Of a stretch of DNA of 64,000 nt, positions 40,826-41,281 are shown in pieces (position 1 is the stretch's first letter; the number at the start of each line of letters is the position of its first letter). Source of the stretch: Escherichia phage C6; the sequence record MW679410.1; one strand, written 5' to 3'. The position numbers and the translations under genes are program-made. The notes under the pieces are model-generated. The model searched no databases. It was not told where the DNA came from and saw only the letters and a list, made by a program, of their open reading frames with translations.

Positions 40826-41281
40826 TTACTTTAAATCCTCGGCCCAGTCGAGCTTCAAGGGTTCTTTATATTCTCTGTCTAAGACAACAGGAATCTGGAC
40901 ATCTCCACTAAAGCTAAGTGGTCCTACATTATAAGACAGGGTGATATGAGGGGTATAATCATCAAAATCGTGCGTAGCACCTAAGGTACGAGCATACTGA
41001 TGGCGGCATTTAAGATACTCTGAATTGAGAACCAAGACCAGGACAGGAGAATCACCGTGTTTCCATACTTCAAGATGTCCGGTCGAAGCAACTTCAAAAC
41101 TTCCGGATGCAACGGTGTATGGAACGTTGACTCTTGAATAGCAGATTGTAGAATGGAATTTTTCACGAGGAACTGGATTAGGAACCTTTAAAGTGCGCTG
41201 AAGGTTTTCCAGCGCATCTAAAGTTAATTCAGAGAATTTTGCAGCAACGTATAGACCTTGAGCAAAATCTTCGGTTTTCAT
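40826..41281 (-). CDS. 57B: 2H phosphoesterase, gene 57B (Acb1-type anti-CBASS nuclease)
   Basis: 151 aa; two H-x-T/S-x motifs ([14 protein letters not shown]); position directly upstream of 57A as T4 57B. Confidence 0.75.

What the first reader, a model, noticed from the sequence alone, without database searches (positions are those of the whole stretch)
40826..41281. Gene 57B homologue with two 2H-phosphoesterase H-x-T/S-x motifs (Acb1-type anti-CBASS enzyme)
The 151-aa product has HSTICYSR and HITLSY motifs and lies directly upstream of 57A, the position of T4 57B. T4 57B is, as I recall, the founding Acb1 enzyme that degrades cyclic-nucleotide immune signals. It is adjacent to the variable CTS-protein locus, so this stretch is a small anti-defence neighbourhood.
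Basis: established knowledge. Interest (0 to 1): 0.45.

Follow-up and report, generated by a model that had tools for sequence, protein, structure and literature searches.

The report
Intact Acb1 (57B) anti-CBASS gene
This is the ordinary, intact copy of the T4-family gene 57B (Acb1), a small enzyme that cuts the cyclic-nucleotide alarm signals of the bacterial CBASS defence system; it is already known and identical to the copy in phage IME08.

Summary
It carries HSTICYSR (41132..41155) and HITLSY (40931..40948).

- The product matches Pfam PF23474 "Acb1" end to end (E=1.2e-58).
- It matches the crystallised Erwinia phage FBB1 Acb1 (7T26/7T27) at 65% identity (E=1.6e-58).
- It is 100% identical to IME08 57B and 85% identical to T4 57B, which Hobbs et al. 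2022 defined as Acb1.
- All nine residues that paper names as functional are kept: Y11, H43, T45, W73, F106, H112, T114, E140, W146 (T4 number minus 1).
- The order 3-1-57A-57B is conserved down to Acinetobacter and Vibrio T4-like phages.
- pN/pS against T4 is 0.18.

Two corrections:
- 57B lies downstream of 57A on the coding strand, with a TAATG stop/start overlap.
- The "anti-defence neighbourhood" is only partly shown. The two adjacent capsid-targeting-sequence (CTS) genes share just the targeting signal with T4 IPI, and one is frameshifted here.

Verdict: already known, low interest. The enzyme activity of this copy is inferred from its T4 orthologue, not measured.

The parts
40826..41281 (-). 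acb1 / gene 57B coding sequence, 151 aa plus TAA stop
   Evidence: ORF. Pfam PF23474 Acb1, E=1.2e-58, profile positions 1-144 of 144. PDB 7T26/7T27, E=1.6e-58. 100% identical to IME08 57B and 84.8% to T4 57B.
41132..41155 (-). First 2H motif, HSTICYSR; H43 and T45 correspond to T4 H44 and T46
   Evidence: H43 and T45 invariant in 8 sequences down to 36% identity; residue roles from PMC9117128.
40931..40948 (-). Second 2H motif, HITLSY; H112 and T114 correspond to T4 H113 and T115
   Evidence: H112 and T114 invariant.
40829..40852 (-). C-terminal lid LDWAEDLK (T4 residues 145-152), containing W146 (T4 W147). E140 (T4 E141, adenine N6 contact) lies just before it at 40862..40864.
41281..41511 (-). 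Gene 57A (tail-fibre chaperone). Its TAA stop overlaps the acb1 ATG (TAATG), which suggests co-transcription and possibly translational coupling.
   Evidence: Pfam GP57, E=4.4e-27; sequence.
41504..42265 (-). Gene 1, dNMP kinase (synteny anchor)
   Evidence: Pfam DNMK, E=3.4e-90.
40774..40820 (-). PeSL-like cassette immediately after the acb1 stop. It has a T4-early-type promoter (TTTACA-N16-TGaTACTAT). A 10-bp hairpin (40784..40811) covers the -10 hexamer. An exact 47-nt second copy lies at 31773..31819 (-).
   Evidence: Promoter scan; pattern scan; repeat comparison; hairpin fold -18.8 kcal/mol, z=-5.25. Fits the PST/T4 PeSL promoter consensus TTTACW..N17..TAYWAT except for the one-base-shorter spacer (PMC4122927).
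40527..40752 (-). ip8-like CTS (internal virion protein) gene, MKTYQEFITEA.... It is frameshifted in this window by an extra A in the run at 40713..40719 (A7, against A6 in four relatives).
   Evidence: Three-frame translation; DNA alignment with SHP1, AnYang, ABTNLsp5 and IME08; PHROG 8765 'internal virion protein', E=1.9e-18, for the downstream frame.
40253..40525 (-). Ip9-like CTS gene, 90 aa, MKTYQEFISES..., intact
   Evidence: ORF; PHROG 7673 'internal head protein', E=7.2e-56; IME08 annotation Ip9.

Best explanation
The ORF is the Dhakavirus orthologue of T4 gene 57B, that is Acb1, a metal-independent 2H-fold phosphodiesterase.

By homology with the T4 and FBB1 enzymes it should work as follows.
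- It binds 3'-5'-linked cyclic di- and trinucleotide CBASS signals that contain at least one adenosine (3'3'-cGAMP, cUA, cAAA, cAAG).
- It holds them in a U-shaped pocket between aromatic residues Y11, W73, F106 and W146.
- It reads adenine N6 with E140 and closes the C-terminal lid over the ligand.
- It uses the H43/T45 and H112/T114 tetrad for acid-base catalysis. The adenosine 2'-OH attacks the 3'-5' bond, giving a 2',3'-cyclic phosphate intermediate that is then opened to a linear 3'-phosphate product.

Destroying the signal keeps CBASS effectors off and lets the phage finish its cycle.

The gene is expressed from the same strand as genes 3, 1 and 57A, with a stop/start overlap with 57A.

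Shown here: orthology, conservation of every named functional residue, synteny and purifying selection. Inferred: fold, substrates, chemistry and in vivo role.
For: - Pfam PF23474 Acb1, 197.4 bits against a cut-off of 27, covering the whole profile.
- PDB 7T26/7T27 Acb1, E=1.6e-58, residues 9-148 aligned with a single one-residue gap; 65% identity.
- 100% identity to IME08 57B and 84.8% to T4 57B; 1486 phage records hold a homologue.
- T4 57B was defined experimentally as Acb1. Residue roles, substrates, the two-step metal-independent mechanism and the >300-fold defect of T4 delta-acb1 on CBASS-carrying hosts come from PMC9117128.
- Y11, H43, T45, H112, T114, E140 and W146 are invariant in an 8-sequence alignment reaching 36% identity. 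Position 73 is W or F; position 106 is F or Y.
- The order 3-1-57A-57B is annotated in T4, IME08 and Vibrio D482. In Acj9, Klebsiella KM3 and Citrobacter KKP_3664 the small ORF in the 57A position is labelled only 'hypothetical protein'.
- pS=0.775 (saturated) against pN=0.138, so pN/pS=0.18 versus T4.
Against: - No assay exists for this copy.
- The single-sequence AlphaFold2 model was unusable (pLDDT 40.5). The fold therefore rests on 65% identity to a crystal structure, not on a model made here.
- 23 of 151 residues differ from T4, including the segment after W73 (KHGDSPV against KTQDGST). Small shifts in substrate preference cannot be excluded.
- NCBIfam has no model for the family. Public records still label it 'RNA ligase' or 'hypothetical protein'.
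Confidence: 0.95

Rival explanations
1. It is a LigT-like 2'-5' RNA ligase or 2',3'-cyclic nucleotide phosphodiesterase that acts on RNA ends (RNA repair or processing), as the RefSeq and PHROG label 'RNA ligase' suggests. On this view it is not an immune-signal nuclease.
For: PHROG 755 is named 'RNA ligase', and RefSeq records of T4, IME08 and others carry that product name. A weak sub-threshold match to Pfam 2_5_RNA_ligase2 (E=0.028, 14.9 bits) shows the shared 2H superfamily. The second step of Acb1 chemistry, opening a 2',3'-cyclic phosphate, is the reaction of a cyclic phosphodiesterase.
Against: The LigT-type profile scores 14.9 bits against a cut-off of 27, whereas Acb1 scores 197 bits. 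The T4 orthologue at 85% identity was identified by activity-guided fractionation as the cGAMP-degrading enzyme, and its deletion abolishes that activity in infected cells. Residues specific for cyclic-oligonucleotide binding (four aromatic residues, E140, lid) are all present. No ligase activity has been reported in the papers read.
Confidence: 0.03
2. The gene is present but is functionally a liability or decaying in this lineage. Acb1 triggers guard systems such as Panoptes, so this copy could be inactive despite looking intact.
For: Panoptes type II restricts Tevenvirinae that express Acb1, and escapers mutate acb1. A natural isolate, Bas43, carries a nonsense mutation (PMC13577387). The Dhakavirus Bp7 record has a 1-nt insertion that truncates 57B at about residue 134.
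Against: The window ORF is full length and identical to IME08. It keeps every catalytic and binding residue and shows purifying selection against T4. No frameshift or stop is present.
Confidence: 0.02

Closest known systems
T4 gp57B = Acb1 (NP_049750.1), the founding anti-CBASS nuclease (Hobbs et al. 2022, Nature 605:522)
   Same: 85% amino-acid identity with no gaps. Same position after 57A. Same HxT/HxT tetrad, aromatic stacking residues, adenine-contacting Glu and C-terminal lid.
   Different: One residue shorter at the N-terminus: T4 starts ATG ATG, whereas the window has ATA ATG, so T4 numbering equals window numbering plus 1. There are 23 substitutions, clustered in the N-terminal seven residues and the segment after W73. 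T4 has a single CTS gene (ipI) downstream; this window has two unrelated ones.
Escherichia phage IME08 57B (YP_003734284.1), Dhakavirus
   Same: 100% identical protein.
   Different: IME08 has about 210 extra bases right after 57B. They hold a third CTS ORF (69 aa) whose ATG overlaps the 57B stop. The window goes straight from the 57B stop into the PeSL-like cassette.
Erwinia phage FBB1 Acb1, crystal structures 7T26 (apo) and 7T27 (with 3'3'-cGAMP analogue)
   Same: 65% identity over residues 9-148 with a single one-residue gap. Catalytic and binding residues are aligned.
   Different: FBB1 has F where T4 and the window have W73, and Y where they have F106. These are conservative aromatic swaps.
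LigT / 2'-5' RNA ligase-type 2H phosphoesterases (Pfam PF13563, PF02834)
   Same: Two H-x-T/S motifs on a 2H fold; chemistry through a 2',3'-cyclic phosphate.
   Different: Only a sub-threshold profile match (E=0.028). The window protein is a member of the Acb1 family, not the LigT family. The 'RNA ligase' product name in public records is a superfamily-level legacy label.

Membership tests
Acb1 (Pfam PF23474; Hobbs et al. 2022) | Full-length match to the curated family profile above its gathering score | tested here: met
   197.4 bits against a cut-off of 27, E=1.2e-58, profile positions 1-144 of 144.
Acb1 (Pfam PF23474; Hobbs et al. 2022) | Active-site HxT/HxT tetrad (T4 H44, T46, H113, T115) | tested here: met
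   H43, T45, H112 and T114 align and are invariant across 8 sequences; roles.
Acb1 (Pfam PF23474; Hobbs et al. 2022) | Aromatic residues that stack on the nucleobases (T4 Y12, W74, F107, W147) | tested here: met
   Y11, W73, F106 and W146 are present and identical to T4.
Acb1 (Pfam PF23474; Hobbs et al. 2022) | Adenine N6 contact (T4 E141) and C-terminal lid (T4 residues 145-152) | tested here: met
   E140 is invariant. The lid LDWAEDLK differs from T4 LDWADDLK by one conservative change.
Acb1 (Pfam PF23474; Hobbs et al. 2022) | Compact 2H phosphoesterase fold | tested here: inconclusive
   The single-sequence AlphaFold2 model had pLDDT 40.5 and was not searched. The fold is inferred from 65% identity with a single one-residue gap to chain 7T26_A, which makes a different fold very unlikely.
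Acb1 (Pfam PF23474; Hobbs et al. 2022) | [quoted passage not shown] | not testable with these tools
   Shown for T4 and FBB1 enzymes only.
Acb1 (Pfam PF23474; Hobbs et al. 2022) | Position in T4-like genomes: last gene of the 3-1-57A-57B run, followed by the variable internal-protein / tRNA region | tested here: met
   Window. The order is annotated in T4, IME08 and Vibrio D482. In Acj9, KM3 and KKP_3664 the small ORF in the 57A position is annotated only as 'hypothetical protein'.
LigT / 2'-5' RNA ligase family (Pfam PF13563) | Profile match above the gathering score | tested here: not met
   14.9 bits against a cut-off of 27, E=0.028, partial match.
T4-type internal (CTS) proteins, for the two neighbouring ORFs | N-terminal capsid targeting sequence of the MKTYQEFIAE type ending in the L/I-x-E prohead-protease site. 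The consensus is taken from my own knowledge of T4 IPIII/IPI work by Mullaney and Black. | tested here: met
   MKTYQEFISE (40253..40525) and MKTYQEFITE (ATG at 40752); PHROG 7673 and 8765 'internal head/virion protein'.
T4 IPI (GmrSD inhibitor) | Homology of the mature, injected part to IPI | tested here: not met
   BLASTP similarity is confined to the N-terminal CTS and processing region (first 7 to about 32 residues). No anti-restriction function can be transferred.

The most novel reading that the evidence does not exclude
The junction after acb1 could be an active swap site for injected proteins. The acb1 stop is followed by a PeSL-type promoter-hairpin cassette that has an exact 47-nt twin 9 kb away. 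The number of CTS genes behind it differs between near-identical phages (2 here, 3 in IME08, 1 in T4). The ip8-like gene is switched off here by one extra A in a homopolymer run. If that frameshift is real rather than a sequencing error, the phage varies its injected (possibly anti-defence) cargo by slippage and by PeSL-mediated recombination right next to a fixed anti-CBASS gene. A second unexcluded reading is that the 23 substitutions against T4 retune Acb1 specificity, for example to avoid Panoptes decoy nucleotides.
Probability: 0.08. Interest if true: 0.35.

Novelty: already known. Interest (0 to 1): 0.08.

Why it matters
It adds nothing new to biology. Acb1 is an established family with crystal structures, a Pfam model and more than a thousand phage homologues, and this copy is identical to one already in GenBank.

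Its practical value is in annotation.
- The gene should be called acb1 (anti-CBASS cyclic-oligonucleotide phosphodiesterase), not 'RNA ligase' or 'hypothetical protein'.
- The window also encodes an Acb2/Vs.4 homologue, so this phage is predicted to resist many CBASS systems.
- By the same token it is predicted to be sensitive to guard systems such as Panoptes, which detect loss of cyclic nucleotides. That is relevant for predicting host range in phage therapy candidates.

Tried and rejected
- **Single-sequence AlphaFold2.** pLDDT was 40.5, so the model was useless and no fold search was run.
- **NCBIfam scan.** No model exists for this family.
- **Pfam at E up to 10.** Only sub-threshold noise beside Acb1 (2_5_RNA_ligase2, ComJ, WYL_3). 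This rejects LigT membership.
- **Motif pair alone as evidence.** 2 of 48 comparable ORFs in the window have two H-x-T/S motifs, so the motifs alone are weak. The profile match is what counts.
- **Transfer of IPI anti-restriction function to the neighbouring CTS genes.** Rejected: similarity is limited to the N-terminal CTS and processing region.
- **Late-promoter and MotA-box search near the gene.** No TATAAATA lies between 38011 and 44872, so no dedicated late promoter sits in front of 57A/57B. The transcription start was not resolved.
- **Rfam scan of the whole window.** Only the three tRNAs; no RNA element in or near the ORF.
- **Two Python calls and one later (53).** These failed because loci fetched by accession or in parallel were not copied to the script machine. 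I worked round this with the translate and get_sequence tools.
- **Search for vs.4.** I first looked in the wrong T4 region (106-116 kb).

Full report
**1. What is in the sequence**

The ORF listing shows an ATG-started ORF at window 40826..41281 on the minus strand, 151 aa with the stop codon included. The sequence is [16 protein letters not shown]...HSTICYSR...HITLSY...LDWAEDLK.

- The ATG overlaps the TAA stop of the preceding minus-strand ORF as TAATG.
- That preceding ORF (41281..41511) is gene 57A (Pfam GP57, E=4.4e-27).
- The one before it (41504..42265) is gene 1, dNMP kinase (Pfam DNMK, E=3.4e-90).
- The next one up (42265..42855) hits the PHROG 'tail tube' family 45 that T4 gene 3 also carries.

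On the coding strand the order is therefore 3 - 1 - 57A - 57B, exactly as in T4.

**2. Is it more than chance?**

A pair of H-x-T/S motifs is not rare: 2 of 48 ORFs of 100-250 aa in the six frames of this window have one. The motifs alone would be weak evidence. The whole-protein matches are decisive.

- Pfam PF23474 'Anti-CBASS protein Acb1' scores 197.4 bits against a cut-off of 27, E=1.2e-58, covering profile positions 1-144 of 144.
- Chain 7T26_A/7T27 'Acb1' scores E=1.6e-58 over residues 9-148, with a single one-residue gap.
- A tblastn against 50,697 phage records finds 1486 records with a homologue. Identity is 100% in IME08, 98-99% in other Dhakavirus phages, 84.8% in T4, T2 and RB32, about 75% in Klebsiella T4-likes, and 37-50% in Acinetobacter, Aeromonas and Vibrio T4-likes.
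- DNA similarity places the window in the genus Dhakavirus (JS98/IME08 group). No single record covers more than 93% of a 10-kb stretch around the gene.

**3. Residue-level check against the experimental work**

Hobbs et al. 2022 (PMC9117128) identified T4 gene 57B by activity-guided fractionation as the enzyme that degrades 3'3'-cGAMP, and named it Acb1. Their main findings:

- They solved FBB1 Acb1 with and without ligand. It has a 2H phosphoesterase fold.
- Y12, W74, F107 and W147 stack on the bases. E141 contacts adenine N6. Residues 145-152 form a lid.
- H44/T46/H113/T115 form the catalytic tetrad.
- The reaction is metal-independent and has two steps, through a cyclic phosphate intermediate.

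Translating T4 57B shows that these numbers are T4 numbers. T4 begins ATG ATG, whereas the window has ATA ATG. T4 numbering therefore equals window numbering plus 1.

The window protein has Y11, H43, T45, W73, F106, H112, T114, E140 and W146, so all nine residues are present and identical to T4. I aligned eight sequences: the window, T4, IME08, FBB1, Acj9, Vibrio D482, Klebsiella KM3 and Citrobacter KKP_3664. In that alignment Y11, H43, T45, H112, T114, E140 and W146 are invariant. Positions 73 and 106 stay aromatic.

Against T4 the gene has 71.5% nucleotide and 128/151 amino-acid identity. pS is 0.775 (saturated) and pN is 0.138, so pN/pS is 0.18. That is purifying selection on the protein.

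**4. Mechanism**

This part is inferred from the orthologues. The enzyme binds 3'-5'-linked cyclic di- or trinucleotides containing adenosine and strains the adenosine so that its 2'-OH attacks the adjacent phosphodiester. The two His/Thr pairs act as acid and base, and the enzyme then opens the 2',3'-cyclic phosphate. With the signal destroyed, CBASS effectors (nucleases, phospholipases) stay off.

- In T4, deleting the gene costs more than 300-fold in plating on CBASS-carrying hosts and nothing on hosts without active CBASS defence.
- More recent work shows the other side. Panoptes guard systems hold an effector inactive with a decoy cyclic nucleotide. They restrict Tevenvirinae that express Acb1, and escapers mutate acb1 (PMC13577387).
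- For T4 and type I Panoptes, Acb2 rather than Acb1 is the necessary trigger (PMC12657218).

**5. Rivals**

- **'RNA ligase'.** This product name in RefSeq and PHROG 755 reflects the 2H superfamily. The LigT-type Pfam profile reaches only 14.9 bits against a cut-off of 27. Membership of that family was tested and not met.
- **A decaying copy.** This is excluded by the intact frame, the conserved residues and the selection signal. By contrast, the Bp7 record does carry a 1-nt insertion that truncates the protein before E140 and W146.

**6. The neighbourhood claim**

Directly after the acb1 stop lies a T4-early-type promoter (TTTACA-N16-TG-n-TACTAT). Its -10 hexamer sits inside a 10-bp hairpin at 40784..40811 (-18.8 kcal/mol, z=-5.25). 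This is the 'promoter-early stem-loop' (PeSL) arrangement described for T4-type hyperplastic regions (PMC2839356; PMC4122927, whose PST/T4 consensus is TTTACW..N17..TAYWAT). An exact 47-nt copy lies at 31773..31819.

Two genes with capsid targeting sequences follow.

- **The ip8-like gene (ATG at 40752).** It begins MKTYQEFITEA. An A7 run at 40713..40719 frameshifts it, where SHP1, AnYang, ABTNLsp5 and IME08 all have A6.
- **The Ip9-like gene (40253..40525).** It is intact and 90 aa long.

IME08 has about 210 extra bases holding a third CTS ORF that overlaps the 57B stop. T4 has only ipI. So the 'variable CTS-protein locus' is real.

Whether it is an anti-defence locus here is not shown. The mature parts of these proteins are unrelated to T4 IPI, which is the only CTS protein I recall as having a known target (GmrSD). 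The papers read say only that IPs counter host defences 'in at least some cases'.

Separately, the window encodes an Acb2/Vs.4 homologue at 25352..25630. It is 65% identical to T4 Vs.4 and matches Pfam Acb2_Tad1_hairpin at E=4.9e-16. It lies 15 kb from acb1, as in T4, so it is not part of the same neighbourhood.

**7. Verdict**

The gene is already known and is 100% identical to a deposited protein. Interest is low. The only untested step is the enzymatic activity of this exact copy, and an 85%-identical characterised orthologue makes that very likely.

Noticed in passing
window 40527..40752 (-), A-run at 40713..40719: The ip8-like internal virion protein gene (MKTYQEFITEA...) is frameshifted by one extra A (A7). 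Four close relatives have A6 and an intact 73-74-aa gene. This is either a homopolymer sequencing error or a real inactivation or slippage site.
   Followed up: partly
window 40774..40820 (-) and 31773..31819 (-): An exact 47-nt repeat, TTGTTTACAAGGTCTATAGGCATGATACTATAGACCTATCAAAACAA, combining an early-type promoter and a hairpin (PeSL-like). About 18 further GTTTAC-N-TAnnnT early-promoter-like sites lie on the minus strand across the window.
   Followed up: partly
L001 (IME08) 2735..2940, compared with window 40826: IME08 carries about 210 extra bases right after 57B with a third CTS ORF (69 aa, MKTYNEFLTEA...) whose ATG overlaps the 57B stop. It is unannotated in the RefSeq record and absent from the window, SHP1, AnYang and ABTNLsp5.
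   Followed up: partly
L011 (Bp7, NC_019500) 401..808: The Bp7 57B has a 1-nt insertion that shifts the frame at about residue 134 and removes E140 and the W146 lid. The record has an N nearby, so it may be a sequencing error, or a natural acb1 knockout of the kind selected by Panoptes.
   Followed up: partly
window 25352..25630 (-): A 92-aa homologue of T4 Vs.4 = Acb2, the cyclic-nucleotide sponge. It is 65% identical to T4 Vs.4 and matches Pfam Acb2_Tad1_hairpin at E=4.9e-16. The phage therefore carries both known T4 anti-CBASS genes.
   Followed up: yes
window 42938..43603 (-): A 221-aa HNH-type homing endonuclease ORF (PHROG 655, E=1.1e-55) sits immediately after gene 3 on the plus-strand map. 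T4 has only a short intergenic gap between genes 3 and 2 at this place.
   Followed up: no
window 38218..38450 (-) and 38456..39338 (-): tRNA-Arg(tct), tRNA-Asn(gtt) and tRNA-Met(cat) form a cluster as in IME08. The window has about 0.9 kb of extra sequence between trna.2 and the tRNAs, with ORFs of 161 aa (PHROG 2290, unknown function) and 90 aa. IME08 lacks these at this position.
   Followed up: no
L001 (IME08) 3392..3395; window 41282..41284: The IME08 RefSeq CDS for 57B is annotated one codon too long. It starts on ATA, apparently copied from T4, where that codon is ATG. The product name 'RNA ligase' in RefSeq and PHROG 755 is out of date.
   Followed up: yes
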